From NCBI GenBank assembly GCA_002423155.1, contig DIUV01000044.1, positions 62,278-126,277 on the forward strand: a DNA stretch of 64,000 nt. Reading direction: 5' to 3'. Source of the stretch: Alphaproteobacteria bacterium UBA6149 (GTDB taxonomy: Bacteria > Pseudomonadota > Alphaproteobacteria > Rickettsiales > UBA998). Shown piece by piece: positions 3,012-54,614 of the stretch (position 1 is its first letter; each line of letters begins with the position of its first letter). Under the pieces are notes generated by a model that was not told the origin of the DNA, did no database searches, and saw nothing but the letters and a program-made list of their open reading frames with translations. The translations under genes and the position numbers were made by a program.

Positions 3012-3500
3012 ATGACTTTAGCAATAATTCTCACCATTCTCATGGCGATCGTCGTATATTTAGATACCTCACGTTTTGTGATACCTAATTGGTTGAATTT
3101 AATTATTCTGGTTTTGTTTCCTATTGCAGGGTTTATGCATCCTGAAGCGGTGCAATGGCTGGGCAGTTTATACTCATTTTTGCTCTATTTTGCCATTGGT
3201 TATGCGGTTTTTGTGCTGCGTTTAATGGGCGGAGGAGATATTAAATTATTGGCGGTTTGTGCGCTGTGGTGCAGCTGGGGCGAGGCGAGCACCATGCTTA
3301 TATTATATACGTCGTTATATGGGGGATTATTAACCGCTTTCTTGCTAATTATGCGCCCGATTTGCAGCACTTTTCTAAGCGCAGAAAAAACCAATTTTCG
3401 TGTATTGAGAAAGCGTGAGCCCGTCCCTTATGGCATCGCCATAGCAGCGGCTTTTCTTACCCTTTTATGGACGGAGAAACTCTCTGTAGTCGGATTATAA
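3012..3500 (+). CDS. cpaA: A24-family prepilin peptidase (CpaA/TadV-like, no methyltransferase domain)
   Basis: 162-aa polytopic membrane protein with both catalytic Asp contexts (YLDTSRFVIPN and GGGDIKLL). Confidence 0.75.
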   Translation: MTLAIILTILMAIVVYLDTSRFVIPNWLNLIILVLFPIAGFMHPEAVQWLGSLYSFLLYFAIGYAVFVLRLMGGGDIKLLAVCALWCSWGEASTMLILYTSLYGGLLTAFLLIMRPICSTFLSAEKTNFRVLRKREPVPYGIAIAAAFLTLLWTEKLSVVGL

Positions 3501-6215: not shown

Positions 6216-6611
6216 TCAAAGACCTAATTCTTTTCTAGCGGCTTGCGCAATAAAGCCCGAGCGAGTCAGCCCAAATTGCTTAGCTTTTAAATCAATTAAA
6301 GAAAGCAATTCTGCATCTATACTGGCATTAAAACGTATAGGTTCTTTCTTTGGGACATTAATACCAACAACAAAATAGGCGCTCGCGTCCTTATAATCAT
6401 CATTTTTTGATATATTCTCTAAACTACTGGGTTTAGGCAGGGGTAGGTTTTCCTCCAACATACAAGCAACATGCCCAGACAAAGCCTCTTGAGCCATATC
6501 TTTTGCGTCATCAATAGTGGTTCCTGCGGTAATACAACCAGGAAAATCAGGAAAACTTACCCCAAAATCAGATTCTTCTTCTTTGTGAATAACCGCTATA
6601 TAGTTCAACAT
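6216..6611 (-). CDS. hicB: HicB-family antitoxin
   Basis: HicB N-terminal fold pattern (YIAVIHKEEESDFGVSFPDFPGCITAGTTIDDA) plus a C-terminal RHH-like DNA-binding tail. It starts 1 nt after the hicA stop. Confidence 0.85.
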   Translation of the reverse strand: MLNYIAVIHKEEESDFGVSFPDFPGCITAGTTIDDAKDMAQEALSGHVACMLEENLPLPKPSSLENISKNDDYKDASAYFVVGINVPKKEPIRFNASIDAELLSLIDLKAKQFGLTRSGFIAQAARKELGL

Positions 6612-25401: not shown

Positions 25402-25491
25402 TATTTCCTCTTTTTTGCCATTATATTGTTGTTTTTTCAAAATATTTAACTATGATATTAGTATTAGTTATATAACAATAAACTTAATCTG

Positions 25492-25526
25492 AAAAAAGCC
25501 TCTCGTTATTAACGGGGGGCTTTTTT
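25492..25526. terminator. right copy of the 35-bp direct repeat / terminator hairpin
   Basis: Identical to 23587-23621. It overlaps the stop codon of the 497-aa gene (25525-25527). Confidence 0.7.
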
Positions 25527-39996: not shown

Positions 39997-40142
39997 TATT
40001 ATTTAACATTGTGTAGGGTTATGGTTTTATTATTCCAAAAGAGTATCAGGTGGCATGCTTAATGCTTTATTTACTAATTTAATGCTATATTGTAATATAA
40101 ATCTATATTTTTATAAGTAATACATAAATTAGGGCAATATCT

Positions 40143-42221
40143 ATGACGCAAATAATACGAGCAGTGAGCAAATTAGTTAGTTTTTTAAAAGTTACTAGCG
40201 AACCTCGCCATAAATTGCGTGCTGCGGGCTTTAGCTTAATTGAATTATCGGTGGTTTTGACCATTATTGGGGTTGTTACAGCGAGCGGATTGTCGATCGC
40301 GACGAGCTCATTGGAGCGTACCAAATACACTTCCAGCAAAGATAAAATGACTGAAGTGCTTGCGGCACTTAGCCGTTTTTATGCGTCTAATTACCGCTTG
40401 CCTTGCCCAGCAGATCCAGCGCTTGCTCCAGGTGCGGGTGGATATGGGCAGGAGATTTATAGCACGAACGGAACTACTGCAGGTTTATGTGATGCGGTTA
40501 CTACTCCTGCAAATACAGCTGCTGTGGGCGGAAGTACTAGACGGCACGTTACTTCTAATGATGCTCTGGGGGTGGCGCGGGATGCTTATGTGCGTCAGGG
40601 CTCATTGCCAACTCGTGCTTTGGGTATTGCAGATAATATGATGTATGATGAATATGGTTATAAATTCACCTATGTAGTGACGGAAGCTTTTACCACGGGA
40701 ACCTCATCTGCCCCAGCAAGTGCAACAGGAGCAATCACGGTTAATGATGGGTTGGGCAATAATCTTACTATTGTTGCCGAAATGGCGGTTATTTCGCACG
40801 GGAAGGACCATAAGGGAGCTTATAATAAAACTGGTACACAAACCAGTACTTGTGGAGCAAGCACTAATTTAGACGTAGAAAATTGTGACACGGAAGTTAA
40901 CGACGTTTGGTTGACCGACGCGCAATATAACGCAGGTACGGTGGCGGCGTCGTATTTCGATGATTTGATTAGATGGCAGGATAAAAATACGGTGATAGGC
41001 ACTTATGCGGCTAGTGGGAGCGGAAGCTCTGGTTCTAGTTCTAGTAGTAGCGGTAATTGCAATTATTATTTATTAACAACTAATAGATATGTTTATTTTC
41101 CTCCTGCTAGCAGTACTGTAACCTATCCCCTAACCGTGCGCATTGTAGCAATCGGTGGAGGTGGAGGAGACAACTACGGTGGCTCAGGTAATATTGTCGC
41201 TGTAACAGATAGCACAAATATTACAAACTCTGGACCATATTATGTAATGATAGGTGCTGGTGGAGTTGCTGCTTCTCAAACAGGTGGAGTTGGTGGAGCT
41301 GGTGGAACTGGTTATAAAAATGGTGGCGCAGGCGGTACGGGGGCTGCTCATGCTAGCAAAGAATTGGGCGGTGGCGGTGGCGGTGGATCTTCAGCCTTTG
41401 GAAGTTATAGTGCAGGCACTATTGGGACTCCGTTCATCGTAGCGGGTGGTGGTGGTGGTGGTGGCGGGTATGGTACTAATTATGAGGATTCCACAGGCGG
41501 TGGCGGTGGCGGTGGTGGAATAACTACAGGCAGTAATGGTGGAAATTATTCTGGCGTTAACGGTGGGAACGGAGGAAATGGAGGGTCTGCAGGTGTTTGG
41601 GCTGGATCAGGTGGTGGCGGTGGCGGTGGTGGTACAGGTAAACTAGGTACTGGTGGTACTGGTGGTAATGGTAATGGCGGCGGTGGCGGCGGCGGCGGTG
41701 GTGATGCTTGTTGTACTAACGGCGGTGGCGGCGGCGGCGGTGGTGGTTACGGTGGTGCTGGTGGAGTTTATTCTGGCGGTGGCGGTGGGTTTAATGGAGG
41801 AATTGGTGGTTCTCCTGTGACAGGAAGAGGAGGAGCAGGCGGCGGCGGCGGTGGGAATGGTACTGCTTGGGACGGCGGCGGTGGTGCTGGTGGAAATACC
41901 ACCACTGGCGGCGGTGGTGGAACATATAACGTCCCAGGTGGTATTATTGGCGTTGCTCCTGCTGGAGCTGGAAATGGGGGTAAGGGTGGTGGTGCTGGTG
42001 CGTCAGCTATTAATACCCCTGTGGCCACTTATGTAACTGGCAACTATAATGTAGGAGGTATAGATTTTAAATGTGCATCTTTTGTTGATAGCGGAATTAA
42101 AGGTTTTAGTATTACTCCTAAAGATGCGACTGCTACTACTGCCATAGGTAGAGCCTACTCTAGTGTTGGTGGTGGGTGGAGTGCGTCCTCTGGGGCTGTT
42201 TACATCGAATGGGATCAATAA
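40143..42221 (+). CDS. type IV pilin-like (prepilin N-terminal) protein with a giant glycine-rich C-terminal domain
   Basis: Prepilin motif G/FSLIELSVVLTIIGVV (Gly-1, Phe+1, Glu+5), a Ser/Gly linker, then about 290 aa dominated by Gly runs interrupted by short beta-like strands. The true start may be internal, because the leader from 40143 is 29 aa. Confidence 0.6.
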   Translation: MTQIIRAVSKLVSFLKVTSEPRHKLRAAGFSLIELSVVLTIIGVVTASGLSIATSSLERTKYTSSKDKMTEVLAALSRFYASNYRLPCPADPALAPGAGGYGQEIYSTNGTTAGLCDAVTTPANTAAVGGSTRRHVTSNDALGVARDAYVRQGSLPTRALGIADNMMYDEYGYKFTYVVTEAFTTGTSSAPASATGAITVNDGLGNNLTIVAEMAVISHGKDHKGAYNKTGTQTSTCGASTNLDVENCDTEVNDVWLTDAQYNAGTVAASYFDDLIRWQDKNTVIGTYAASGSGSSGSSSSSSGNCNYYLLTTNRYVYFPPASSTVTYPLTVRIVAIGGGGGDNYGGSGNIVAVTDSTNITNSGPYYVMIGAGGVAASQTGGVGGAGGTGYKNGGAGGTGAAHASKELGGGGGGGSSAFGSYSAGTIGTPFIVAGGGGGGGGYGTNYEDSTGGGGGGGGITTGSNGGNYSGVNGGNGGNGGSAGVWAGSGGGGGGGGTGKLGTGGTGGNGNGGGGGGGGGDACCTNGGGGGGGGGYGGAGGVYSGGGGGFNGGIGGSPVTGRGGAGGGGGGNGTAWDGGGGAGGNTTTGGGGGTYNVPGGIIGVAPAGAGNGGKGGGAGASAINTPVATYVTGNYNVGGIDFKCASFVDSGIKGFSITPKDATATTAIGRAYSSVGGGWSASSGAVYIEWDQ

Positions 42222-42268: not shown

Positions 42269-43492
42269 TTAACTGCAAATTACTTTGGCAACCAAGTTTT
42301 TCGATAGGTCGCTAACTCCAGCCATATCGGCAAATTCTGCCCAATTATTGATTGAGCTAATAACTTCATCAATAATCTTTTGTGCGCTAAAAACCCCAAA
42401 TTTCTCTGCCAGTTTTAGTAAATGTGCATGCGTGGGGTTTTTGCCTTCTCCCATGATGGTGGTGCAGTGTTCTCCGCCGGGGCCGTTGGAAAAGGTGAGG
42501 TCGTAAGCGGGGGCGCATTGCCAGTTTCCTTCTGCGCTCATTAAAAAACTGAAATTTTTGGCATGGTCATCGCGGTTATGGGCAAAAACATTGAAGGTGG
42601 CGAGGCGGAAGATTTTTTCTAGTTCTTGTATGTTATGTGTCAGTGCTAGCGTGGCACGCATTATTTGTTCATAATCCAAGGAGGGGAGGCGATGATCTGC
42701 GTTAATTAATCCTGCGATAGTGTGTATATGTACGCGCTGTTTTTGGTTTCTATCAAAACGCTGCACCCCAAAATATCCAGCTCCTTGAGGAGAAATGAAT
42801 AAATGGGTGGGCATCATCTCCAGTCCTGCGGCTTTTGCCATTAGGCTATAGGCATATTCTATGGCGCCGATGTCTTGAGGGTCATTACTGGAAGCAAATT
42901 TTATCATCCAATGTTCGTAATTATTGGGCAGATTGTTATTGCCAGAAATAAAGTGTTTTTTGTTGGAGCTAATGCCCACCATAATTTTGGGACGTGCACC
43001 CGCAGAGGAACCAGATAAGTCTAGTAGTTCATCAAATAGTGCCTCAGGTGCTCCTGCTAGCACGGCTTTGCTTGTTTGCGCTAGTTTGTCCAGGTTTATG
43101 GGTTCTGGCAATGTGTGGGTGCTATTATATGGCTCATATACTAGCGCACCCATGCCATGTTTGCCGACTTGGGCGAGGCGGTCGAGCGGGGTTAGTTGTT
43201 CGGGCATGATGCCGTTTTGGCGAACTTGTCTATCTAGTAATAAACGTCCCCAACCATCGGGAAGGCTATCGTTAAATACGCCAAATAATCCTTCAAATAC
43301 CAGGTTTTCGCAAGGGATAGCACCGATTTGCAAGGGGAGTTTAAAGGGGGAGATTTCTATTTTTGTTTTTATAAACTCTGGAGCATATTCAAAATAAATA
43401 CGGCGATTCGCCAGCGCCAGGCGACCAAGTTTTTGGGGATTGTTATTGCAATCTAAAAAAACATTTAAAGAATTAACCGGATGATATTTCAT
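42269..43492 (-). CDS. hipA: HipA-family serine/threonine kinase toxin
   Basis: HipA N-terminal coupling domain and the catalytic region NRDDHAKNFSF; 407 aa. Overlaps the upstream HTH gene by 4 bp. Confidence 0.85.
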   Translation of the reverse strand: MKYHPVNSLNVFLDCNNNPQKLGRLALANRRIYFEYAPEFIKTKIEISPFKLPLQIGAIPCENLVFEGLFGVFNDSLPDGWGRLLLDRQVRQNGIMPEQLTPLDRLAQVGKHGMGALVYEPYNSTHTLPEPINLDKLAQTSKAVLAGAPEALFDELLDLSGSSAGARPKIMVGISSNKKHFISGNNNLPNNYEHWMIKFASSNDPQDIGAIEYAYSLMAKAAGLEMMPTHLFISPQGAGYFGVQRFDRNQKQRVHIHTIAGLINADHRLPSLDYEQIMRATLALTHNIQELEKIFRLATFNVFAHNRDDHAKNFSFLMSAEGNWQCAPAYDLTFSNGPGGEHCTTIMGEGKNPTHAHLLKLAEKFGVFSAQKIIDEVISSINNWAEFADMAGVSDLSKNLVAKVICS

Positions 43493-43827
43493 TGTTTTCT
43501 CCCCCGCTTACGTATTTTGGGTTGCTTTAACAATTCATCTAGCGTGAGCGGGGTGGTGGGAGGTGGCGTGGTGAAAAGCAATTCAAATTCTTTTTCTGCG
43601 TGCAAGGCGATGGCGATTTTTAGTAGATGCGCCAAAGAAATTTTACCAGTATTTTCAAATAGTTTGATGCTGCCTAAGCTAACCCCAGATTTTTGCGCGA
43701 GGGCGGTTTGGGTAAGGTTCAGCACCAGCCGTTGCGCTTTAGCACGCCCAGAAATTTCTTGCAATAGCTCTAAGGGTGTTTTTATCATAACAGCTAATAT
43801 ATTATCCGCTAATGAGCAAAAAGTCAA
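43489..43827 (-). CDS. hipB: HipB-like XRE-family HTH antitoxin
   Basis: HTH LNLTQTALAQKSGVSLGSIKLFENTG; 112 aa; translationally coupled to hipA. Confidence 0.75.
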   Translation of the reverse strand: MTFCSLADNILAVMIKTPLELLQEISGRAKAQRLVLNLTQTALAQKSGVSLGSIKLFENTGKISLAHLLKIAIALHAEKEFELLFTTPPPTTPLTLDELLKQPKIRKRGRKQ

Positions 43828-45992: not shown

Positions 45993-47174
45993 TTAAAAGT
46001 CCCTCAATAGAGCGCGTAGCCTTGGCTCGCGTAGCCATCCCGCTTCGCGATAGATTTTTATAGATAGGCTAGGGTCTGCGAGATGGTCTAAAAAACGTGC
46101 TAAGGTTTGGATTATATTTAAAGTTTCTTCCTCTGCCAAAGGAGTGGTTTTTTGGTTGCTGGCAACCATTAAGGCAAGTTTTACGGTGCTTAAGCGAATG
46201 GCTATTATACTGGCACGTTCAGTTAATGATTCGCCAAATCCCCCAAAAGGAAATAAAGCGGCAGCAAGCTGGGCAGTTATCCAGCGGCGTAATATTGGCT
46301 CAAAATCGGCTTCATTTTTTTGCCAGGCTTGTTCTATCTTTAGCCAGTTGCGGTAGCTATTATCCGAGGTGGTCATGGCAGTTCCGCTTGCCTGATGAAT
46401 TATGCTCGCGTCTAACGCGGTTGCTATATCGGCAATTATTCCGTCTAATTTTGGGCGTTTTATAGCGGGTTTGGTTGCCCCCACTAGTCCTGCAAGCGCA
46501 TGAAGAAGATTAAATGGATCGTCAGGAACTATTTCGGGGGTGGGTAAGCGTGCGGCGGCGTTTTTTAAATAAAATGCACTAGCCTCAGCCCAGTTGGCGA
46601 TTTCTATATGTTCTAATGACTGAGTTACTGAAAATATTTGTGCCATTATATTGGCAGAACTAAGCTCTTTTCTTTGGGTTATTTGTAAAAATTGCTGATG
46701 TATTTGCAACGCCGCATCTGCGGATAATTCGGGGGGTAAATAATTTTTCAGCGAGGAGGGCAGCCGCAAAATTTCAGACCCTTGGTGGGAAAAACTATTA
46801 TCTTCCGTAAGCGCCAGACGAGCTATTTCTGGGCAAGAAAGCGCCGCGGTCATTATGATATGTTCGCCGAGCGTAGAAGTAATCCGCGGAAAGAAATTAC
46901 AGGCATCGCCTAAAAAATCCGTGCCTTTATCTTGGTGAATCCCGCATAATCCGTTGCTAAATTTTACACAATAATCGGTAACATCGTCGCGTTTCATAAT
47001 ATGGGTTGTGCCATCAGAAACAACCGCATCTAATAATTCGGGCGCGTGCTCAACATATTTCTGGTAAATTTTCTCGTCCAACTGCATCCGCCAACCCTTG
47101 CAGCAAGTATCTGCGCATTTATCTCCCAAGCAGGAAAATTTTTCCAAGAAAGCGGATTGTTGGAGCGCTGACAT
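45993..47174 (-). CDS. fliB: FliB-like flagellin lysine-N-methylase (YkgJ-type Cys-rich protein)
   Basis: The N-terminal FSCLGDKCADTCCKGW motif matches my recollection of Salmonella FliB. Size is 393 aa and the context is flagellar. Confidence 0.6.
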   Translation of the reverse strand: MSALQQSAFLEKFSCLGDKCADTCCKGWRMQLDEKIYQKYVEHAPELLDAVVSDGTTHIMKRDDVTDYCVKFSNGLCGIHQDKGTDFLGDACNFFPRITSTLGEHIIMTAALSCPEIARLALTEDNSFSHQGSEILRLPSSLKNYLPPELSADAALQIHQQFLQITQRKELSSANIMAQIFSVTQSLEHIEIANWAEASAFYLKNAAARLPTPEIVPDDPFNLLHALAGLVGATKPAIKRPKLDGIIADIATALDASIIHQASGTAMTTSDNSYRNWLKIEQAWQKNEADFEPILRRWITAQLAAALFPFGGFGESLTERASIIAIRLSTVKLALMVASNQKTTPLAEEETLNIIQTLARFLDHLADPSLSIKIYREAGWLREPRLRALLRDF

Positions 47175-47177
47175 ACA

Positions 47178-47735
47178 CTACGCGTCGATAAAATGGCGAA
47201 CTACATATTTGTTGTTACGCAATACATATTGTTCAGCTGTGCGTTTGTTGCTGTCAATAAATAAAGGCGCACGTGCATTTACCGAAAGCTTAACCGTATT
47301 ATCTAACTCACGATGTACAGAAACAATAAAGAAAAGCGTAAGGCTATCTAATGGAATGGACAAATCTTTGCAGCCTTCCGCAATATCTTCGGCACTAACA
47401 ATCGGATTTTCCAATTCTGTGGGCATGGTAATGAAAGATAAAGCCACATCTTCTAATGATTGCAATAATTTGAAGCGGCTGAATTTTTCTAAAGGAAAAT
47501 TTGCCAGAAAAAATTTATTACGATCAGGCATGCCTAGCATACCCTTGGGAAATACAATTGAATAATCTGGTTCAGCTATTGATTCACCGTTCATCTTCGG
47601 CACTTTTATTTTCCCAAAACGGGTGTCTAACCAATCTCCACTAGCAGGCATATTGCTAGATAGGAAATTGTTAGGGTTAACCATTGGTGCATCAATAGTT
47701 TTGGTAATCATTGCAGCTGCTGCTCCACTCATCAT
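47178..47735 (-). CDS. fliW: flagellar assembly factor FliW
   Basis: The F.KGMLGMP...FKLLQSLED..LSF....P... and NARAPLFI...R.A.Q.VL.N.KY.V.H pattern is typical of FliW. It carries an N-terminal extension. Confidence 0.7.
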   Translation of the reverse strand: MMSGAAAAMITKTIDAPMVNPNNFLSSNMPASGDWLDTRFGKIKVPKMNGESIAEPDYSIVFPKGMLGMPDRNKFFLANFPLEKFSRFKLLQSLEDVALSFITMPTELENPIVSAEDIAEGCKDLSIPLDSLTLFFIVSVHRELDNTVKLSVNARAPLFIDSNKRTAEQYVLRNNKYVVRHFIDA

Positions 47736-47764
47736 TTTTTCTCTTCAAATAGGTTTAATAAAAT

Positions 47765-48688
47765 TTACTTTATGAAGTCAACTAATCTCAATGAATTAAT
47801 CACCGAGAATGCCTTGAAAGAAGCGTTTAATATGGTTTGATCAATTGATATTTGCGTTGAGGCAGCAACTTGATCGGTTGCAATTAAATCAGAAGCTACA
47901 CCCTTTAAATATAAACGCAAAGAGTCATGCCTATCATTAATATTCTGTAATTGTACAAGGTTAGAATTCATCGAGGATTTTATGGTTATAAGCCCATCTA
48001 ATCCGCTCGAGAGCATATCCATTGCGCTGGATAATTTGGCTTGATCATTTGTTCCTGATGCTTCCACGCTTAAAGAAATTGCGGCAAACACTTTTTGGAA
48101 TGCCTCATCATCTGCGCGTACGTTATATTGTATATCGTGATTATCTTCAGCGCGGATGGTGAAATCTTCCAGGCTGCCATTATAATATCCAGCATCAGGA
48201 GTGCCCGAAACCACAGGTTCAGGAATTGACGGATCTACGATAACCGGAGGAGTATCGGTTCGTGTGCCGCCAAATAAAAACCGCCCACCTAAGTTGGTGT
48301 TTAGCAACCCCGCGAGCGATATTTTATCGTTCAATACCTGTTGAGAAAACGCCGCAGTATCACTAGCATCTTGCGTGCCACTGCGGCGCAAGGTTAATGC
48401 CGCACGTACGTCTTCGGTTATTTGGATAATATTATCCATCGCTTTACTGGCGGTTTGCAGGCGCGATATTCCTTCCGTAACATTGTTTTGATAGGTTTGA
48501 ATTCTCCGCATCTTGTCTTCTAAGCCAGTGAATTGCTCAATATCTCCCAACATTCCTTGAAAATTATTGGTTTTAAACCCACTGGAAATTTGACCCTGCA
48601 CATTCGCCAAATCAAACTGCACTTTTCCAAAATCGGATATAGTGCGTTGTTGTAAAGCTAAGGTTCCTACGCGGCTAACTACAGTCAT
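47765..48688 (-). CDS. flgL: flagellar hook-associated protein 3
   Basis: Flagellin-like N- and C-terminal helices; position after flgK. Confidence 0.85.
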   Translation of the reverse strand: MTVVSRVGTLALQQRTISDFGKVQFDLANVQGQISSGFKTNNFQGMLGDIEQFTGLEDKMRRIQTYQNNVTEGISRLQTASKAMDNIIQITEDVRAALTLRRSGTQDASDTAAFSQQVLNDKISLAGLLNTNLGGRFLFGGTRTDTPPVIVDPSIPEPVVSGTPDAGYYNGSLEDFTIRAEDNHDIQYNVRADDEAFQKVFAAISLSVEASGTNDQAKLSSAMDMLSSGLDGLITIKSSMNSNLVQLQNINDRHDSLRLYLKGVASDLIATDQVAASTQISIDQTILNASFKAFSVINSLRLVDFIK

Positions 48689-48730
48689 TTACTTGCTCTC
48701 CATCGAGAATTATATTTTCAGTTTATTCCC

Positions 48731-48962
48731 CTACACGACAGTACTATTAATAACAGTATTACATATTGATATATAATGTATCTTTATAACAAATATATCC
48801 GCCGTCATACCGCTGTAGAGCGGTATCCATGCCTATCAACTAGCTGCAAGCCAATGGTTTGGCATGGATACCGTCCTGCGACGGTATGACAATGGAGAGT
48901 TTGTATGTATAATACATTGTTATTTAATATATAAATTCCTTGTTAATAGTGCTATCGTACAG
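48731..48962. repeat. composite palindromic element: outer CTACACGACAGTACTATTAA inverted repeats enclosing family B copy B2 (48798-48898)
   Basis: Outer arms lie at 48731-48750 and 48943-48962. The inner part is a GTCATACCGC...GGTATGAC palindrome. It sits in the flgK-flgL spacer. Confidence 0.8.
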
Positions 48963-49027
48963 AGTGCAGTTTATTATAGATAATTAACACTAATAGTCGA
49001 GTAATTACTACACAACTAGCGCCAATA

Positions 49028-51748
49028 TTATCGAATACTATCCAAAAGATTGCCAAACAACTCATTTGTCACAGTGATTACCCGCGCAGAAGCTGAGTAA
49101 GCATGTTGGAAAATGATGATGTTCGCCATTTCTTCGTCGATATTTACTCCGCTGATGGCATTTACGCGCTCCACAAAACCATCTAGCAAGGTTTGACTGT
49201 CCTTGTTAGAGCTGGTTGCTTGCGCTGCCATGTTAGAGACATTCGCAAGAATTTGTCCAGAGTAAGTAGAAAAAGTTACATTAGAATTAGCCAGCCCACC
49301 TGCTTGTTCAAAGCTGATTAGTTGGTTACTTAAATTTGCCATTGCCTTAGCTGCTTGCGCATTGCCGCCATAACGCACGTAAGTATAAACCGGATCATCA
49401 GTAACATCCGCAGATTGTGGGCTGGCTTCCAATTTCCCTGTGCTAATTAAATTCGCATTATCTAGCAATCTGTCTTCTACAGCTAGATTAAGCGCACTAT
49501 TTTTTAGACTATCGCCCGTGCTGGAAAGATTATTGCTTCTGAAGAAATTATTTAACCCAAAATAATGCGAGAATCCCCAATCAGTTCCCGCAACCGCTGG
49601 ATTAGTATTTATAAATCCTAGTTGTTGGCTGGTTCCTTCTTGCAATGCCACGCTATTATCGGGGTCATAAGTTTCTAATTTTAAATATCCATCCGTATCC
49701 GTATAGATGCCGTTATTAGTGGCTAATTCATTGCCATCTGCATCGACCAACATTGCCCGTAAAGTGGGTTGGCTGGTGGTGGGGAATATGCGCGACGCTT
49801 GCCCAGTCACGGCGGTGCTGTTGTAACGGTCATTCAACAAATTTTGTTGGCTGTTTAAAATGCGGTAAGTAACCGTCGCCGTATTTACGCTTGATGCTGT
49901 GCCAAGATTGTCATCTACGCCAACATTTACAGTGATGTCGTAATATCTGGAAATTGAATTTCCTGATAAATCAACCGTAGCAATTCCTGTATCTCGCGTG
50001 CGCTGTTTTTCTCCTGCATCTACGCTATCCCATTTAGAAGTTCCTGTGGTTGCTGCCAAAGGAGCGGTAGTAGCGGTAGAAGTAGCATTTGAGGGCAGCA
50101 ATATATCAAAAGAGTTTGCCGTAACATTGGTCACTTCAAAATATTGATTAAAGCTGCTGGAATTTATGCCATTAATCGCGCCGCCCGGATCAGAAATATA
50201 TACTTTTCCACCTGTTGACAAGCTGTGCCCTACCGCATTCACGGTAACTGTGGGGCTGCCATTAGTAGTAGAGAAACTACTTATCGTAAATTGCGGCGGC
50301 GGAGTAGTAACATTGGTGATGTTTGCCCCTGTATCATCTAATACAGTTATTCCCGTAACAAAAAAATCGGCTGCACTGTCGGAGATATTATGCAAATCAA
50401 AATCGAAGCTAAACATTGCCGGAGTATCAGGCAGGGCGCTGGTATCAGATACTAATTGAATATTATTTAAATTGCCTAACTCAGTTTTTAGTGGAGGGGG
50501 GCCAAAATAATTATTAATCTCATCAATAATGGTCTGTATGGTCGGCTGACCTTGTCCTAAACCACTTTCTAATTTCGATAAATCTAAAGATAGTGGGATG
50601 ATGCCTTTGCCAGCTTCATCATCATAAGGTGAGTCTATGGGTTGCCCTGCATTATCCAGTGCCGCAATTTGTACAATGCCTGACCAGTCACTACTATCCG
50701 TTGCCCGCAAAACGCGATCCCCGGTTAGGCTATCTGTTCCTGGATAAGACGAACCATCATTATTAAGGGCATTAAAACTATCACGCAGATTCGCGGCTAG
50801 TTGATCTAATTGTGCAAGAATATCAGGTATTTCTTGGTCGCGCAGCTCATGCAATGCTTTTAAGCTACCGCTTTTTAAGGTGGTGGTAATGTCGCTATCT
50901 GTGCCGCTGGAAATAATCGTCGCTGATGATCCTTCTACCTCGCCCGCATCATTTACTGCGGTGATGGTTAGGGCATTAAGTGCAACTTCGTTACTAAAAC
51001 TATCAGGAGAATTTACTGGGCGGTAGCTTAGTTGATAGTTTTTTTGATCAGAAAGTGCAATTCCTCCCGAACTATAAACATTAACTTCGCTATTATCGCC
51101 CATATAGGTTTTTATATCCATATATTGCGCTAGCTTATTCAGATTCTGGTCTTGTTGGTCTTGTAATCCTGCAATCGAATTGCCCAATACTTTTGCATTA
51201 GAAATGGCAATATTAGTGGCGTGTATGCTGGTTAAGATAACATTGATAGTGGTAACTGATTGGTTGATGTCTTGATCCGCCTGATAACGCAAATCTTCTA
51301 ACTGGGCCGCCAGACTAGATACTTGATAGGCAAGATTCTCACCCGAAGAAACTGCCTGCTCACGTGAAGAAGTTTTATCAGGCGATTCCGCCAAAGACTG
51401 AATAGCATTGGTAAAGCTGGTTAAATAAGCGGCAATGCTATTTTGCGCTCCCGGTTTGCCGAGCATTATCTGAATACGGTCCATATAATCTTGCAATATT
51501 TCCGTACGCCCCACCTCGGATGAATGGCTTTGTACTGCACGTTGTAGATAGGTATCTACCTTGCGAGTTACATCATCTATTCTTACGCCTGAGCCGTTAT
51601 TGTTTAAATAAAGCGCAGACAAATCAACCTGTTGGCGGGAATAGCCTTCGGTGTTGGCGTTCGCAATATTATGCGAAATAACATCCAACGCCTTTTGGCT
51701 CATTGCCAAACCGCTAAGTGCGTTATTGAGAGATAGAGATATGCTCAT
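49028..51748 (-). CDS. flgK: flagellar hook-associated protein 1 (unusually long, 906 aa)
   Basis: N-terminus MSISLSLNNALSGLAMSQKALDVISHNIANANTEGYSRQ and C-terminus EEMANIIIFQHAYSASARVITV. Confidence 0.92.
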   Translation of the reverse strand: MSISLSLNNALSGLAMSQKALDVISHNIANANTEGYSRQQVDLSALYLNNNGSGVRIDDVTRKVDTYLQRAVQSHSSEVGRTEILQDYMDRIQIMLGKPGAQNSIAAYLTSFTNAIQSLAESPDKTSSREQAVSSGENLAYQVSSLAAQLEDLRYQADQDINQSVTTINVILTSIHATNIAISNAKVLGNSIAGLQDQQDQNLNKLAQYMDIKTYMGDNSEVNVYSSGGIALSDQKNYQLSYRPVNSPDSFSNEVALNALTITAVNDAGEVEGSSATIISSGTDSDITTTLKSGSLKALHELRDQEIPDILAQLDQLAANLRDSFNALNNDGSSYPGTDSLTGDRVLRATDSSDWSGIVQIAALDNAGQPIDSPYDDEAGKGIIPLSLDLSKLESGLGQGQPTIQTIIDEINNYFGPPPLKTELGNLNNIQLVSDTSALPDTPAMFSFDFDLHNISDSAADFFVTGITVLDDTGANITNVTTPPPQFTISSFSTTNGSPTVTVNAVGHSLSTGGKVYISDPGGAINGINSSSFNQYFEVTNVTANSFDILLPSNATSTATTAPLAATTGTSKWDSVDAGEKQRTRDTGIATVDLSGNSISRYYDITVNVGVDDNLGTASSVNTATVTYRILNSQQNLLNDRYNSTAVTGQASRIFPTTSQPTLRAMLVDADGNELATNNGIYTDTDGYLKLETYDPDNSVALQEGTSQQLGFINTNPAVAGTDWGFSHYFGLNNFFRSNNLSSTGDSLKNSALNLAVEDRLLDNANLISTGKLEASPQSADVTDDPVYTYVRYGGNAQAAKAMANLSNQLISFEQAGGLANSNVTFSTYSGQILANVSNMAAQATSSNKDSQTLLDGFVERVNAISGVNIDEEMANIIIFQHAYSASARVITVTNELFGNLLDSIR

Positions 51749-51785
51749 ATTTTTATTTCCGCTAGAATTATTAACTATAGTATTT

Positions 51786-51819
51786 CTTATTTTAAATTAC
51801 GTTCGTAATTTAAAATAAG
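51786..51819. repeat. 34-bp near-perfect palindrome upstream of flgK
   Basis: CTTATTTTAAATTACG TT CGTAATTTAAAATAAG, with 16-bp perfect arms. Confidence 0.8.
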
Positions 51820-51844
51820 ACGTTCAGTCGCCACTAAGGCTAAC

Positions 51845-51877
51845 GCCGCATGGGCGGCAGTCTTGCGGTCGCAAGAC
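51845..51877 (+). repeat. REP-like double hairpin (family F), copy 3
   Basis: GCCGCATGGGCGGC followed by GTCTTGCGGTCGCAAGAC. Confidence 0.7.
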
Positions 51878-51938
51878 CATAGCAATTTCGAGTATTTTAT
51901 GTTAAGTAAAATTAGAAATTGCTATAAAATACAATCAA

Positions 51939-52400
51939 CTAAATGGTCTTATTTACCGTAATTGAAACCGCTGCATTGCTTAAATCAGTTTTGCCGGTTT
52001 CATTATAAATGCCGTTGCTTTTAGCTTCGCTGACTACTTCGCTTATAGCTTCCACCACTTTCATATTTACTTCGCGTGCGAGTAATAATCTATTATAGTT
52101 TTCTTCCGCAACTATTTGGAAAATATTGACTATTTCCGCCAAATCTTCCGCTTCTTCATCGGTTATTTCTTCTAAAATATAGGGATGATTGAGTAATATC
52201 TTTTTTTGTCTTTCTAACACTTCCAATAATTGCGTTTTTTCTTTTTGCAAGGGCTCCAAATCACGAATACGCATTTGTTCCATTAGCTCAGTTTCTTTTG
52301 CCAGCACTTGCGCTAATTTTGCGGTTAGCTCAATTAGGTTGTTTATATTGGGTGCAGTAGAAAAAACTTCATCTTCTTCTTGTTGGGCGAGAGCGGACAT
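51939..52400 (-). CDS. FlgN/FlbY-like flagellar chaperone-type protein
   Basis: 153-aa helical acidic protein. Its position after flgI and the rod-binding gene matches the Caulobacter flgI-cheL-flbY order. Confidence 0.45.
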   Translation of the reverse strand: MSALAQQEEDEVFSTAPNINNLIELTAKLAQVLAKETELMEQMRIRDLEPLQKEKTQLLEVLERQKKILLNHPYILEEITDEEAEDLAEIVNIFQIVAEENYNRLLLAREVNMKVVEAISEVVSEAKSNGIYNETGKTDLSNAAVSITVNKTI

Positions 52401-52823
52401 TTATATCTCCTTATTATTGGTTTTATTATTAGTTTCTTCGGTTTTTTCATCCATAAATGGATGCGCAGAATTGGTATTTGCCACTAGGCTATTGCTGGTC
52501 ATAACCGCAGGTCGTTGACCTGCTTCTTGAACCGCGAGCATTTCTTTTTTTACATAATCTGCCACGCCAATACCACCTGCGCGAGACATTATTTTCCCGT
52601 ATTGTTCAATCATCATGGATTTATATATTTCTTCTGACTCTCCGCCGCCAAAATTATCATCGGGCTTAATGCCGTCAAACATGTGCTCTAACATTTGTGA
52701 TAAAAACACCGACTCAAAATCTTGGGCAGCTTCATCAATTTGTTCCATCGTTGCCGGTTTGTTTTTCCCCTGCAAAGGAATCATTTGCGTATTGCTAAAG
52801 GAATAATTTGAAATTGCGTCCAT
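52401..52823 (-). CDS. flgJ: flagellar rod-binding protein (FlgJ N-terminal domain / CheL-like, no muramidase domain)
   Basis: AAQDFESVFLSQMLEHMF is the rod-binding domain signature. Confidence 0.75.
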   Translation of the reverse strand: MDAISNYSFSNTQMIPLQGKNKPATMEQIDEAAQDFESVFLSQMLEHMFDGIKPDDNFGGGESEEIYKSMMIEQYGKIMSRAGGIGVADYVKKEMLAVQEAGQRPAVMTSNSLVANTNSAHPFMDEKTEETNNKTNNKEI

Positions 52824-52833
52824 TTTTTCCTCC

Positions 52834-53985
52834 CTATCTGGTTTGTATATCGGCTTGCAATGCGCCTGCCGCTTTGATGGTTTGTAATATAGTTATCATA
52901 TCCCGAGGACCCACGCCCAATGCATTTAATCCGGCGACTAAATCTTTTAAAGTGGCGGAATTTTTTAACACTGCCATACGTGCATCGCTATTTTCATTTA
53001 CACTAACATTGGTGCTGGGAACCACTACTGTCTGCGCACCTTCGGGAGCAAAAGCATTTGGTTGAGAAACTTTGGGAGCTTCATCAACTTTTACTACCAG
53101 ATTGCCTTGGGCTACAGCCACCGTATCAATCCGCACATTTTCGCCCATAACAATTGTGCCCGATGCTTCATCAATAACAATCCGCGCAATTTGATCGGTC
53201 TGCACATCCAAAGTTTCAATATCGGCGAGCATGGTTGCGACATCCCCTTTATAAGCAGGGTTGGCGTGAACCATTACCGTTCCTGGGTCAATCATGTTGG
53301 CAGTTCCCGGACCTACACGCCCATTAATAGCCTCGGCAATATGGTTGGCGGTAGATAAATCCGGGTTGCGTAAAGCTAGTTTTACAGATTTTAGACCATT
53401 TAGATCAAAGTCAATTTCCCGTTCTACAACGGCTCCATTCGCTACTGCTCCACTGGTGGGCACGCCTTTGGTAATTGAAGAGCCCGATTGACCACTCGCC
53501 TCAAACCCACCCAGCGCAATCGCGCCTTGAGCTACGGCATAAACTTCCCCATCCGCGCCATATAAAGGAGTGGCAAGCAAAGTTCCGCCTTGCAGGCTTT
53601 TTGCATCTCCCATGGCGCTTACAGACACATCAATATTGCTCCCCGTGCGGGAAAAACCGGGCAATTTAGCGGTGACCGTTACGGCGGCGACGTTACGAGT
53701 TTTAAGGCTGGTGCCACGAGTATTCACCCCTTGGCGTTCCAAAAAAGCAATCAGGCTTTGTTCAGTGAAGGCACTGTTTTGTAAGCGATCTCCCGTGCCG
53801 TTTAAGCCCACCACCAAACCATAACCCAGCAACATATTGTCGCGGATACCTTCTACTGCTACGATGTCTTTTATACGTGCCGCTTGTGCTGAAGCGCAAA
53901 ACACCAACGCCATCACAATCATCATGAATGAGGCGGAAATTCTTGCCATTAACAGGCGCACAGAGGAAGAAAAAATATTTAACAC
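52834..53985 (-). CDS. flgI: flagellar P-ring protein
   Basis: Signal peptide followed by RIKDI..VEG.R.N.L.GYGLVVGLNGTGD; C-terminus ALGV.P.D.I.ILQ.IK.AGAL.A.I. Confidence 0.95.
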   Translation of the reverse strand: MLNIFSSSVRLLMARISASFMMIVMALVFCASAQAARIKDIVAVEGIRDNMLLGYGLVVGLNGTGDRLQNSAFTEQSLIAFLERQGVNTRGTSLKTRNVAAVTVTAKLPGFSRTGSNIDVSVSAMGDAKSLQGGTLLATPLYGADGEVYAVAQGAIALGGFEASGQSGSSITKGVPTSGAVANGAVVEREIDFDLNGLKSVKLALRNPDLSTANHIAEAINGRVGPGTANMIDPGTVMVHANPAYKGDVATMLADIETLDVQTDQIARIVIDEASGTIVMGENVRIDTVAVAQGNLVVKVDEAPKVSQPNAFAPEGAQTVVVPSTNVSVNENSDARMAVLKNSATLKDLVAGLNALGVGPRDMITILQTIKAAGALQADIQTR

Positions 53986-54027
53986 AGCGCAACATACCAG
54001 AATTATTTTTATATCACCCTATCTATA

Positions 54028-54043
54028 TGCGATTTTCGTGCCA
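54028..54043 (-). promoter_or_regulatory. candidate sigma-54 promoter for flgI
   Basis: Minus strand reads TGGCACGAAAATCGCA, with GG and GC at the consensus -24/-12 spacing (TGGCAC-N5-TTGC). It lies about 45 nt upstream of the flgI ATG. Confidence 0.4.
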
Positions 54044-54167
54044 AACCATCCAATGAATTGCTATCAATGGGTTAGAAGCCCTGATTAATAAATAGTAGGC
54101 ATAATTTTCCCCACGTGAAAAATTACCCACAGAAATCGTTTCTCAGCAACCTGCTAAGCTTGCAGGA

Positions 54168-54614
54168 GTGTTTTTATTGGCTTATATAAGGGGAATGAAA
54201 ATTGAAACCAGCTTTTCTATCCCTCTAATTTCTAAAGCACGCAGGCGGAGCAAAACGTCGAGCGTAGGTTCTGGTTTTGCCGAGGTTTTAGACGAGGTAT
54301 CGCTGGTGGATGCACCTACGGAGATTGCTCACACTGCTCCCGTAAATGCGTTAGATGCAATTTTAGCATTGCAGGAAGTTTCCGACGAAGAAGGGCAGCG
54401 CAAACGGGCGATAAAATCAGGACATTCAGCCTTGGATGAGCTGGAAAAATTACGTGTGGCGATGTTATTTGGTGCGGTTCCCAAGGAAAGATTATTGGCA
54501 ATCAAACAACAAATGGTAAATTTAAAGACGCGCACCCACGATCCCGAATTGCATATTATTTTAGAAGAAATAGAAATAAGAGCCGCGGTGGAATTAGCAA
54601 AATATGGGTTTTAA
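54168..54614 (+). CDS. fliX: flagellar assembly regulator FliX
   Basis: About 140 aa, divergent from flgI as in Caulobacter, with a conserved central/C-terminal helical region. The start is ambiguous: GTG 54168, TTG 54177 (AGGAG 8 nt upstream) or ATG 54195. Confidence 0.65.
   Translation: MFLLAYIRGMKIETSFSIPLISKARRRSKTSSVGSGFAEVLDEVSLVDAPTEIAHTAPVNALDAILALQEVSDEEGQRKRAIKSGHSALDELEKLRVAMLFGAVPKERLLAIKQQMVNLKTRTHDPELHIILEEIEIRAAVELAKYGF

What the first reader, a model, noticed from the sequence alone, without database searches (positions are those of the whole stretch)
40143..42221. Pilin-like N-terminus fused to an extreme polyglycine domain
Seen in the sequence:
- The protein begins with a canonical type IV pilin / pseudopilin class III signal (…RAAG|FSLIELSVVLTIIGVV, with Glu at +5).
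- It continues with a ~230-aa pilin-sized region and a SGSGSSGSSSSSSG linker.
- The next ~290 aa are mostly glycine. Runs reach at least 9-10 consecutive Gly, e.g. GNGGGGGGGGGDACCTNGGGGGGGGGYGGAGG.
- These runs are punctuated by short strand-like segments (TVRIVAIGGGGG, YYVMIGAGG, FIVAGGGGGGGG).
- It ends in a ~70-aa non-Gly C-terminus.

The strand-then-GGGGG periodicity recalls glycine-rich domains built from polyglycine-II helices. That comparison is from memory and unverified.

No pilus or T2SS assembly genes flank the gene. It sits between ribD and a hipBA module. The only prepilin peptidase in the window is a CpaA-type enzyme 37 kb away, which lacks the N-methylase domain expected for a Phe+1 pilin. 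It could be a minor-pilin tip adhesin, a surface fibre, or something not yet described.
Basis: partly seen in the sequence, partly recalled or inferred. Interest (0 to 1): 0.7.

Follow-up and report, generated by a model that had tools for sequence, protein, structure and literature searches.

The report
Pilin carrying a glycine-rich binding head
This is a real, conserved gene from an uncultured flagellated alphaproteobacterium that joins a type IV pilin to a glycine-rich domain also found on phage tail tips and in the human ALK receptor, so it is most likely a sticky tip for a pilus.

Summary
ORF 40143-42221 (+) encodes a 692-aa protein with four parts:
- a class III (prepilin) signal, G29|F30 with E34;
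- a ~260-aa pilin module;
- a Ser/Gly linker;
- a C-terminal module of about 390 aa, whose stretch 317-625 is 46% Gly with runs of up to 9.

The pilin module belongs to a large family (at least 1,958 hits), mostly stand-alone ~320-aa proteins from Rickettsiales-like and other alphaproteobacterial MAGs. A minority of members carry a C-terminal Pfam Gly_rich_2 (PF21722) domain.

The window protein's own C-terminus fails the Pfam model. Three results still place it with that domain:
- Its strand-rich first half matches a Gly_rich_2 HMM built without it (z = 9.8 against shuffles).
- Its AlphaFold model (pTM 0.63) has only ALK/LTK "TNF-like + glycine-rich" ectodomains as its top 20 PDB hits.
- The same model matches phage "glycine-rich domain" proteins in BFVD (E = 1e-7).

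dN/dS of 0.07-0.47 against an orthologue rules out a degenerate remnant. A 42-bp in-frame indel inside the Gly codons separates two otherwise identical alleles.

Best reading: a modular type IV pilin with a new kind of module, probably a tip-displayed adhesin. No pilus assembly genes were found nearby, so the filament system is unknown. This is a new variant of a known kind, of moderate interest.

The parts
40143..42221 (+). Complete gene for the 692-aa modular pilin (stop codon included)
   Evidence: ORF list. The exact protein is on record in 3 assemblies. A 67%-identical orthologue is P0002.
40143..40229 (+). Leader peptide, aa 1-29, ending in Gly29. Its length is uncertain: GTG at codon 8 or TTG at codon 25 are alternative starts.
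   Evidence: N_methyl and TIGR02532 hits at aa 26-48. An SD-like AGGG lies 8 nt before the ATG. The leader is not conserved with P0002.
40230..40391 (+). Mature N-terminus F30...E34 and the long alpha-1 helix (aa 30-83), the polymerisation and membrane-anchor element of type IV pilins
   Evidence: AF2 helix 32-83 with pLDDT 83-95. F30, L32, I33, E34, L35 and S36 are invariant in the family. PDB pilin hits run through this segment.
40392..41012 (+). Globular part of the pilin module (aa 84-290), with family-invariant LPCPA, YG, C116, S218/G220 and FDD motifs
   Evidence: Family profile A2 scores 283 bits against the window. At least 1,958 homologues. dN/dS is 0.067 against P0002. The fold was not modelled with confidence.
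41013..41054 (+). Ser/Gly linker SGSGSSGSSSSSSG (aa 291-304)
   Evidence: Sequence. It lies between the two module envelopes, N 15-295 and C 300-692.
41055..42218 (+). Glycine-rich module (aa 305-692): eight beta-strands (306-311, 315-319, 330-337, 351-360, 364-369, 417-423, 426-434, 685-691) interleaved with Gly runs. Gly_rich_2 / ALK-LTK TG-like fold.
   Evidence: AF2 pTM 0.63. Foldseek against PDB gives ALK/LTK as the top 20. BFVD phage glycine-rich proteins at E = 1e-7. Shuffle test z = 9.8 for aa 305-450. Collinear alignment A7.
41678..41719 (+). 42-bp in-frame indel (aa 513-526, GGGGGGGGDACCTN), present here and absent in allele P0001/L085. It is bounded by a ~25-bp direct repeat CGGCGGTGGCGGCGGCGGCGGTGGTG.
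   Evidence: The gene-to-gene alignment has 0 substitutions and one 42-bp gap. GGT/GGC micro-repeats were found by TRF.
41997..42182 (+). Lineage-specific insert (aa 619-680) before the last strand of the sandwich. It is shared with P0002 and absent from canonical Gly_rich_2 domains.
   Evidence: Alignments A5 and A7. pLDDT is 28-41. dN/dS is 0.47 over aa 621-692.
40051..40066 (+). Sigma-54-like motif TGGCATG-N4-ATGCT (GG-N10-GC), 77 nt upstream of the ATG. A lead only.
   Evidence: 2 matches in the window against 1.03 expected. Not found upstream of relatives.
3012..3500 (+). Candidate processing enzyme: a lone 162-aa A24 prepilin peptidase without a methyltransferase domain, 37 kb away beside topA
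   Evidence: Pfam Peptidase_A24 at E = 5e-14 is the only domain. No NCBIfam equivalog. The same arrangement occurs in L091.

Best explanation
The gene encodes a bimodular ('modular') type IV pilin.

Proposed mechanism:
1. The precursor inserts in the inner membrane.
2. An A24 prepilin peptidase removes the leader after Gly29, exposing Phe30 with Glu34.
3. The hydrophobic alpha-1 helix lets the subunit enter a type IV filament built mainly of other subunits, probably plain ~320-aa members of the same pilin family.
4. A bulky ~390-aa module hangs from the pilin head on a Ser/Gly linker, so the subunit most likely sits at the filament tip.
5. The module is a beta-sandwich interleaved with glycine runs, of the Gly_rich_2 / ALK-LTK 'TNF-like + glycine-rich' fold. 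The same kind of domain sits at the distal, host-contacting ends of phage tail proteins.
6. It would act as a rigid binding head (adhesin) for a surface ligand on a host, prey or substrate. The fast-evolving inserts and loops between Gly runs would supply specificity, and slippage in the GGY codon repeats would supply length variants.

Shown: the gene is real and under purifying selection; the pilin signature and alpha-1 helix; family membership of the pilin module; the recurrent pilin + Gly_rich_2 architecture; the fold-level match of the C-module.

Inferred: processing, incorporation into a filament, tip location, adhesin function and the ligand.
For: - Pilin identity: N_methyl and TIGR02532 score above their curated cut-offs. 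The alpha-1 helix 32-83 is predicted confidently. The family profile hits solved T4P major pilins, 8tj2 at E = 4e-6 plus geopilin, PilA5 and PilE1.
- Pilin family: at least 1,958 homologues, mostly stand-alone and labelled prepilin-type, concentrated in Rickettsiales and other alphaproteobacterial MAGs.
- Recurrent fusion: 12 of 248 fetched proteins carry both modules. The relatives' C-modules hit PF21722 at E down to 4e-25. In L002 and L088 a Gly_rich_2-tipped pilin is followed by two plain paralogues, the pattern expected for a tip subunit plus shaft subunits.
- C-module: aa 305-450 score 19.7 bits against a query-free Gly_rich_2 HMM, while shuffles score -24.5 +/- 4.5 and 0 of 1000 reach it. 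AF2 gives pTM 0.63. The top 20 PDB hits are all ALK/LTK TG domains at probability 0.90-1.00. BFVD phage glycine-rich proteins match at E = 1e-7 with TM 0.39-0.46 normalised by the query.
- Selection: dN/dS is 0.067 for the pilin module, 0.20-0.28 for the Gly module and 0.47 for the tail. In 115 Gly/Gly columns pS is 0.62 and pN is 0.
- Literature: modular pilins are widespread and probably tip-located adhesins (PMC8179133). Polyglycine-rich domains on phage tail tips are presumed host-binding (PMC6851490, PMC13252515, PMC13243795). T4P components occur in basal and aquatic Rickettsiales and are proposed to mediate host attachment (PMC10847448).
Against: - No T4P or T2SS assembly genes were found in the 64-kb window, about 4.4 kb beyond its left edge, within 10 kb of the relatives examined, or recurrently among 142 ORFs flanking 24 other family members.
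- The only A24 peptidase seen is a short Tad-type-sized enzyme without the methylase domain.
- The globular pilin head could not be modelled; pLDDT was below 50 because the alignment was faulty.
- The query fails Pfam PF21722 and PF12810 outright.
- The second half of the Gly module cannot be told apart from shuffled sequence.
- Foldseek TM-scores to ALK/LTK are low, 0.2-0.3 over about 150 residues.
- PGII geometry was not measured.
- There are no expression or binding data.
Confidence: 0.55

Rival explanations
1. It is a pilin-like protein that never leaves the envelope. It would be either a T2SS-type pseudopilin or an inner-membrane-anchored periplasmic protein that uses the class III signal only as an anchor, with the Gly-rich module acting in the periplasm or cell wall.
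For: No pilus machinery is nearby in any locus examined. Weak N-terminal matches to GspG and GspH models, about 19 bits. Only a short A24 peptidase is in the window.
Against: The GspG and GspH matches cover only the shared alpha-1N segment and fall far below the cut-offs of 80-89 bits. The best solved relatives are T4P major pilins. The Gly_rich_2 fold is otherwise seen on extracellular, distal phage and viral proteins and on a receptor ectodomain. A ~390-aa appendage on a pseudopilin has no precedent that I know of (own knowledge).
Confidence: 0.15
2. It is a shaft (major or abundant) subunit, so the whole filament is decorated with Gly-rich heads. That would give a thick 'bottle-brush' fibre rather than a tip adhesin.
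For: The flexible 14-residue Ser/Gly linker could let the module project from the filament body; PMC8179133 notes this possibility. It is the only family member in the 64-kb window.
Against: In related genomes the fused gene sits beside plain paralogues. Fusions are a small minority of the family: 1 of the 120 best hits carries PF21722. Steric modelling of other modular pilins favours the tip (PMC8179133).
Confidence: 0.12
3. The Gly-rich part is a non-functional low-complexity expansion, a frameshifted remnant or an assembly artefact attached to an ordinary pilin gene.
For: Pfam and exhaustive phmmer find nothing for the C-terminus beyond its own cluster. GGY micro-repeats and a 42-bp indel show the DNA is prone to slippage.
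Against: The 692-aa ORF is identical in three assemblies. The 67%-identical orthologue keeps the frame, all the non-Gly anchor strands and the terminal YIEWDQ. Gly/Gly columns have pS 0.62 and pN 0, and dN/dS is 0.2-0.3. The fold is predicted with pTM 0.63 and gives specific structural hits.
Confidence: 0.03

Closest known systems
Modular type IV pilins (Streptococcus sanguinis PilB with a vWA module and PilC with a lectin module; ETEC CofB; V. cholerae TcpB), as defined by Raynaud et al. 2021 (PMC8179133)
   Same: A class III signal and pilin module at the N-terminus, a short linker, and a bulky extra module at the C-terminus that is expected to bind ligands and to be displayed at the filament tip.
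   Different: The extra module is a glycine-rich Gly_rich_2 / ALK-TG-like domain. It is not named among the architectures quoted in the parts of that paper I read, and PF21722 appears in no searchable paper. The pilin module is about 260 aa, from a lineage-specific alphaproteobacterial family. No function or localisation data exist.
Pfam PF21722 Gly_rich_2 ('Glycine-rich domain'), found in phage and giant-virus tail or fibre-like proteins and in many uncharacterised bacterial proteins
   Same: The same order of motifs: strand then GGGGG, Y.[IV]TVG.GG, S.F, I.A.GGGG, NTGGGGG, and a terminal G.V.I.[YW] strand. The first half is significantly similar. The predicted fold matches BFVD members at E = 1e-7. 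Close relatives of the pilin family carry bona fide PF21722 at the same position.
   Different: The window protein does not reach the Pfam threshold, with no hit even at E <= 1. It has longer Gly runs and three lineage-specific inserts (aa 382-405, 542-555, 619-680). The conserved 'SISG...YY' hairpin is replaced by GDACCTN or deleted.
ALK/LTK 'TG' supradomain (TNF-like + glycine-rich; PDB 7nx1, 7mzy, 7lrz, 7n00, 7lir)
   Same: These are the only solved structures retrieved by the model, filling the top 20 at probability 0.90-1.00. Beta-strands interleave with poly-Gly runs in the same order over aa 324-536.
   Different: TM-scores are only 0.2-0.3 over about 150 residues. The sequence similarity does not survive composition correction, z = 1.2. 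There is no PF12810 hit. The context is bacterial and pilin-anchored, not a receptor kinase, with no EGF-like domain and no ALKAL ligand.
Phage polyglycine-rich 'brush' domains and the gp38 polyglycine sandwich (Salmonella phage S16; mycobacteriophage Bxb1 tail tip 9d93)
   Same: Glycine-rich motifs separated by short variable segments on a distal, host-recognising protein (PMC6851490, PMC13252515, PMC13243795). The Bxb1 tail-tip chains are the best non-ALK PDB hit, with TM 0.40-0.44 normalised by the target.
   Different: The Bxb1 match has low probability, 0.2. No gp38 structure appears among the 38 PDB hits. gp38's sandwich is a 73-residue insertion in a beta-helix, a different architecture.

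Membership tests
Type IV pilin / type 4 filament subunit | Class III signal peptide: a hydrophilic leader ending in Gly, then a hydrophobic stretch of about 20 aa with Glu at +5 | tested here: met
   RAAG|FSLIELSVVLTIIGVV. PF07963 scores 23.0 bits against 21.2. TIGR02532 scores 22 against 16.3. F+1 and E+5 are invariant in the family.
Type IV pilin / type 4 filament subunit | Long N-terminal alpha-1 helix of about 50 residues | tested here: met
   AF2 helix 32-83 with pLDDT 83-95. The profile aligns to alpha-1 of solved pilins, 8tj2 at E = 4e-6.
Type IV pilin / type 4 filament subunit | Globular beta-sheet head packed on alpha-1C | tested here: inconclusive
   aa 94-300 were modelled at pLDDT below 50 because the MSA was garbled.
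Type IV pilin / type 4 filament subunit | Cleavage (and methylation) by an A24 prepilin peptidase | not testable with these tools
   A 162-aa A24 peptidase lies at 3012-3500. It lacks the methylase domain. No biochemical data.
Type IV pilin / type 4 filament subunit | Assembly by a T4F machinery (extension ATPase, platform protein, secretin in diderms) | tested here: not met
   None in the window, about 4.4 kb beyond its left edge, or near the relatives. The rest of the genome is not available, so absence is not shown.
Modular pilin (sensu Raynaud et al. 2021) | An N-terminal pilin module fused by a short linker to an extra, non-pilin module | tested here: met
   Module envelopes are N 15-295 and C 300-692. 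The linker is aa 291-304. The definition is in PMC8179133.
Pfam PF21722 Gly_rich_2 | Score above the Pfam gathering threshold | tested here: not met
   No hit at E <= 1. The same holds for P0001 and P0002.
Pfam PF21722 Gly_rich_2 | Collinear conserved motifs with similarity beyond composition | tested here: met
   For the first half only: 19.7 bits against -24.5 +/- 4.5, z = 9.8, 0 of 1000 shuffles. The second half gives z = 1.2. The whole domain is no better than its reverse. hhalign gives probability 28%.
Pfam PF21722 Gly_rich_2 | Shared fold with family members | tested here: met
   Foldseek against BFVD: 'Glycine-rich domain-containing proteins' at E from 1e-7 to 3e-5, TM 0.39-0.46 normalised by the query. 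The model is of moderate quality, pTM 0.63.
ALK/LTK TG supradomain (PF12810) | Sequence match to the family | tested here: inconclusive
   No PF12810 hit. phmmer to ALK chains gives E = 5e-4 with a bias score of 44. The shuffle test gives z = 1.2 with composition correction and z = 5.1-5.7 without it.
ALK/LTK TG supradomain (PF12810) | TNF-like beta-sandwich interwoven with a glycine-rich subdomain | tested here: inconclusive
   The top 20 PDB hits are all ALK/LTK at probability 0.90-1.00, but TM is 0.18-0.32 over 140-232 alignment columns.
ALK/LTK TG supradomain (PF12810) | Lattice of polyglycine-II helices | not testable with these tools
gp38-type polyglycine sandwich | A three-layer PGII sandwich inserted in a beta-helix | tested here: not met
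   No gp38 structure appears among the 38 Foldseek PDB hits. The architecture described in PMC6851490 differs.

The most novel reading that the evidence does not exclude
The Gly_rich_2 / ALK-TG-like glycine lattice is a mobile, ancient surface-binding module exchanged between phage tail tips and bacterial type IV pili. In uncultured flagellated Rickettsiales-like bacteria it would form the pilus tip that grips eukaryotic host or prey cells. In-frame slippage in its GGY codon repeats (the 42-bp indel) would give rapid length or antigenic variation. The same module family would then be the prokaryotic or viral source of the ligand-binding domain of the metazoan ALK/LTK receptors.
Probability: 0.15. 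Interest if true: 0.75.

Novelty: new variant of a known kind. Interest (0 to 1): 0.45.

Why it matters
If confirmed, this adds a structurally unusual module to the repertoire of pilus tip adhesins: a beta-sandwich with polyglycine runs, otherwise known from the ALK/LTK receptor ectodomain and from phage tail tips.

It also gives a handle on how poorly known aquatic Rickettsiales-like bacteria attach to hosts. These bacteria are flagellated and carry T4SS genes, and attachment is a step thought to precede intracellular life (PMC10847448).

It links three settings of one fold (phage receptor-binding proteins, bacterial pili, an animal receptor kinase). It also offers a compact, bacterially encoded example for studying how PGII-rich domains fold and bind.

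Practically, databases label the whole family only as 'prepilin-type N-terminal cleavage/methylation domain-containing protein', and the window protein's C-module has no annotation at all.

Tried and rejected
1. Full-length AF2 on a mixed alignment (A6) gave mean pLDDT 43.5. The cause was a garbled 2370-column MAFFT alignment in which aa 121-300 were covered by about 2 sequences. Only the alpha-1 helix is usable.
2. An exhaustive phmmer search of aa 305-692 against 1.84 billion representatives returned only its own cluster, because the bias correction removes Gly-rich matches.
3. hhalign of the C-module (2 sequences) against the relatives' Gly_rich_2 domains gave probability 28% and E = 6e-4, too weak to use.
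4. The whole-domain HMM shuffle test was uninformative: the real score was no better than the reverse or block-shuffled sequence. The test works only on the strand-rich first half.
5. A profile of the relatives' Gly_rich_2 domains against PDB sequences gave no hit. The single-sequence ALK hit is largely compositional, so the ALK relationship rests on the fold search only.
6. Sigma-54 promoter idea: the motif at 40051-40066 is not more frequent than chance and is absent upstream of relatives. It is kept as a lead.
7. Searches for nearby pilus machinery in the window, in 9 loci with precomputed Pfam, and in a bulk scan of 142 flanking ORFs were all negative. Extension past the right window edge failed because that protein is not on record.
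8. The organism could not be named. The housekeeping proteins are not in the collection under their exact sequences, and the best reference-genome relative of the pilin is 37% identical.
9. A literature search for PF21722 / Gly_rich_2 found no papers.
10. An antifreeze or ice-binding role, by analogy with the PGII bundles of snow-flea antifreeze protein (own knowledge), was considered. There is no supporting evidence and it was not pursued.
Full report
**Observation.**
- The N-terminus reads ...KLRAAG|FSLIELSVVLTIIGVV. It passes the curated thresholds of Pfam N_methyl (23.0 bits against 21.2, aa 26-48) and TIGR02532 (22 against 16.3).
- The Ser/Gly linker is aa 291-304. All the quoted strand-plus-Gly strings are present.
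- aa 317-625 are 46% Gly. There are eleven runs of at least 4 Gly, the longest being 9. 'Mostly glycine' and '9-10' are slight overstatements.
- G+C and GC skew peak over the Gly codons.
- An 86-aa Pro-rich ORF on the opposite strand is just the mirror of the GGN codons.

**The gene is real and selected.**
- The identical 692-aa product is on record in three independent assemblies.
- A syntenic contig (L085) carries an allele with no substitutions and one 42-bp in-frame deletion, at window 41678-41719. The deletion is bounded by a ~25-bp direct repeat of GGY codons.
- A second organism from the same JGI sample encodes a 67%-identical, 720-aa orthologue, P0002, at a non-syntenic site.
- Against P0002, dN/dS is 0.067 for the pilin module, 0.20-0.28 for the Gly module and 0.47 for the last 72 residues.
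- In 115 aligned Gly/Gly columns, synonymous sites have diverged (pS 0.62) with no replacement. dS is near saturation, so the ratios are rough, but the direction is clear: the glycines are kept at the protein level.

**N-terminal module.**
- A profile of aa 1-295 with eight relatives (A2) finds at least 1,958 proteins. The listed ones are mostly 263-405 aa (median 322) and, where named, are called 'prepilin-type N-terminal cleavage/methylation domain-containing protein'.
- F30, E34, LPCPA (86-90), Y101-G102, C116, S218/G220 and F272-D273-D274 are invariant.
- In one-per-species genomes the family sits mainly in MAGs labelled Rickettsiales or Alphaproteobacteria, with single Midichloriaceae and Holosporaceae genomes and two Micavibrio MAGs. 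The best identity to the window protein is 37%.
- The profile hits solved type IV major pilins through alpha-1: Myxococcus PilA 8tj2 at E = 4e-6, plus geopilin, Thermus PilA5 and PilE1.
- AlphaFold predicts a helix at 32-83 with pLDDT 83-95.
- The globular head was not modelled, because the mixed alignment I supplied was garbled.
- Matches to the GspG and GspH models are confined to alpha-1N and fall far below their cut-offs.

**C-terminal module.**
- Pfam gives nothing for the query itself, neither PF12810 nor PF21722, at E <= 1. An exhaustive phmmer search finds only its own cluster.
- Seven more distant relatives have the same pilin module followed by a bona fide PF21722 Gly_rich_2 domain, at E down to 4e-25.
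- The query aligns collinearly with these through every non-Gly anchor.
- Glycine bias makes ordinary statistics unreliable, so I built a Gly_rich_2 HMM from 116 domains without the query or its two close relatives and compared the real sequence with shuffles.
  - Over the whole module, the real sequence is no better than its reverse.
  - Over the strand-rich first half (aa 305-450), it scores 19.7 bits against -24.5 +/- 4.5. That is z = 9.8, with 0 of 1000 shuffles reaching it and the reverse at -15.6. P0002 behaves the same way.
- With a clean 52-sequence alignment (A7), AlphaFold gives pTM 0.63 and mean pLDDT 63.
  - It predicts eight strands, and most of the first ~230 residues of the model score 70-89.
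  - Three low-confidence, lineage-specific inserts lie at aa 382-405, 542-555 and 619-680.
  - The final strand (685-691) returns to the sandwich at pLDDT 83.
- Foldseek against the PDB returns ALK and LTK 'TG' (TNF-like + glycine-rich) ectodomains as all of the top 20 hits, at probability 0.90-1.00 and E from 9e-4 to 0.1. TM-scores are only 0.18-0.32 over about 150 residues. Next come two mycobacteriophage Bxb1 tail-tip chains at probability 0.2.
- Against BFVD, the best hits are phage and giant-virus 'Glycine-rich domain-containing proteins', at E = 1e-7 and TM 0.39-0.46 normalised by the query.
- The direct ALK sequence hit (E = 5e-4) does not survive composition correction, so the ALK link is at the level of fold only.
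- PGII geometry could not be measured.

**Context.**
- The window is alphaproteobacterial and flagellated: FliX, FlgI, FlgK, flagellin and FliW are present.
- The gene lies between ribD and hipA plus a hipB-like gene.
- Almost every ORF of 110 aa or more was scanned, and none is a T4P, T2SS or Tad assembly gene. The only related gene is a lone 162-aa Peptidase_A24 at 3012-3500, beside topA.
- About 4.4 kb beyond the left edge adds nothing.
- The relatives' genes are likewise scattered among housekeeping genes.
- In a bulk scan of 142 ORFs flanking 24 other family members, the only recurrent pilus-related family was N_methyl, meaning further pilins.
- In one widespread lineage, a slot beside tRNA-Ala(UGC) holds either one plain pilin or a three-gene array whose first gene is Gly_rich_2-tipped.

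**Interpretation.**
- The architecture fits the published definition of a modular type IV pilin. More than 1,200 proteins in 264 architectures are known, and they are argued to sit at the filament tip and bind ligands (PMC8179133).
- Polyglycine-rich domains on phage tails are host-recognition elements whose variable loops between glycine motifs set specificity (PMC6851490; PMC13252515 and PMC13243795).
- T4P components are reported in basal and aquatic Rickettsiales and proposed to mediate host attachment (PMC10847448).
- I therefore read the protein as a pilus-displayed adhesin head. The dN/dS gradient along the protein and the slippage-prone Gly codons fit an exposed, fast-evolving distal module.
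- Processing, filament incorporation, tip location and ligand are all inferred. The assembling machinery is unknown.

**Novelty.**
- The concept, a modular pilin, is known.
- The module and the carrier family are uncharacterised. No searchable paper mentions PF21722.
- This particular protein is not recognised by any domain model beyond the 23-residue N_methyl motif.
- I rate it a new variant of a known kind, of moderate interest.

Noticed in passing
window 23854-25440 (-) and 25525-27018 (-): An anti-phage dCTP deaminase (NCBIfam NF041025, 446 bits against a cut-off of 400). Next to it is a 497-aa ORF with no Pfam or NCBIfam hit, possibly a partner or a separate defence gene.
   Followed up: partly
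window 41678-41719: A 42-bp in-frame indel between two alleles that are otherwise 100% identical, flanked by a ~25-bp direct repeat of GGY codons. It is either slipped-strand or recombinational length variation, or an assembly collapse in one metagenome.
   Followed up: yes
window 40051-40066 (+): A sigma-54-like -24/-12 motif, TGGCATGCTTAATGCT, 77 nt upstream of the pilin start. Only 2 occur in the window against about 1 expected, and relatives lack it. In other lineages rpoN or a sigma-54 activator gene lies near the pilin (L001, L002, L084, L088).
   Followed up: partly
L002 7097-10884; L088 7990-11901; L084 9832-10945; L089 9809-10993: In a widespread Rickettsiales-like lineage, a slot right beside tRNA-Ala(UGC) holds either one plain pilin or a three-gene array (a Gly_rich_2-tipped pilin plus two plain paralogues). 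This is a variable pilin locus at a tRNA gene.
   Followed up: partly
L002 13011-18884; L088 13503-19367; L084 11981-18067; L089 12280-18105: A conserved ORF of about 1,950-2,030 aa with no Pfam hit on record, lying 1-3 kb downstream of the pilin slot, between purE and a Mur-ligase gene (murD-like).
   Followed up: no
P0004, P0144, P0007 (relatives, not in the window): Some family members carry two tandem Gly_rich_2 modules (P0004, P0144). P0007 has about 500 aa of Cys-rich EGF-like repeats between the pilin and Gly modules (EGF_laminin 17.5 bits, below its threshold). This recalls the EGF-like domain next to the ALK TG domain.
   Followed up: no
window 3012-3500 (+): A lone 162-aa A24 prepilin peptidase without a methyltransferase domain, adjacent to topA and not in any pilus or Tad cluster. 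The same arrangement occurs in L091. No NCBIfam equivalog matches it.
   Followed up: partly
window 42269-43827 (-) and 6216-6611 (-): Two toxin-antitoxin modules: hipA plus a hipB-like HTH gene directly downstream of the pilin gene (convergent), and hicB, with hicA adjacent according to L091.
   Followed up: no
window 41768-42028 (-): An 86-aa Pro-rich ORF antisense to the Gly region. It is a mirror artefact of the GGN codons, not a gene.
   Followed up: yes
window 45993-54614: A flagellar gene cluster (FliB-like, FliW, flagellin, FlgK, a rod-binding protein, FlgI, FliX). FliX points to an alphaproteobacterium, and the organism is flagellated, unlike classical Rickettsiales.
   Followed up: partly
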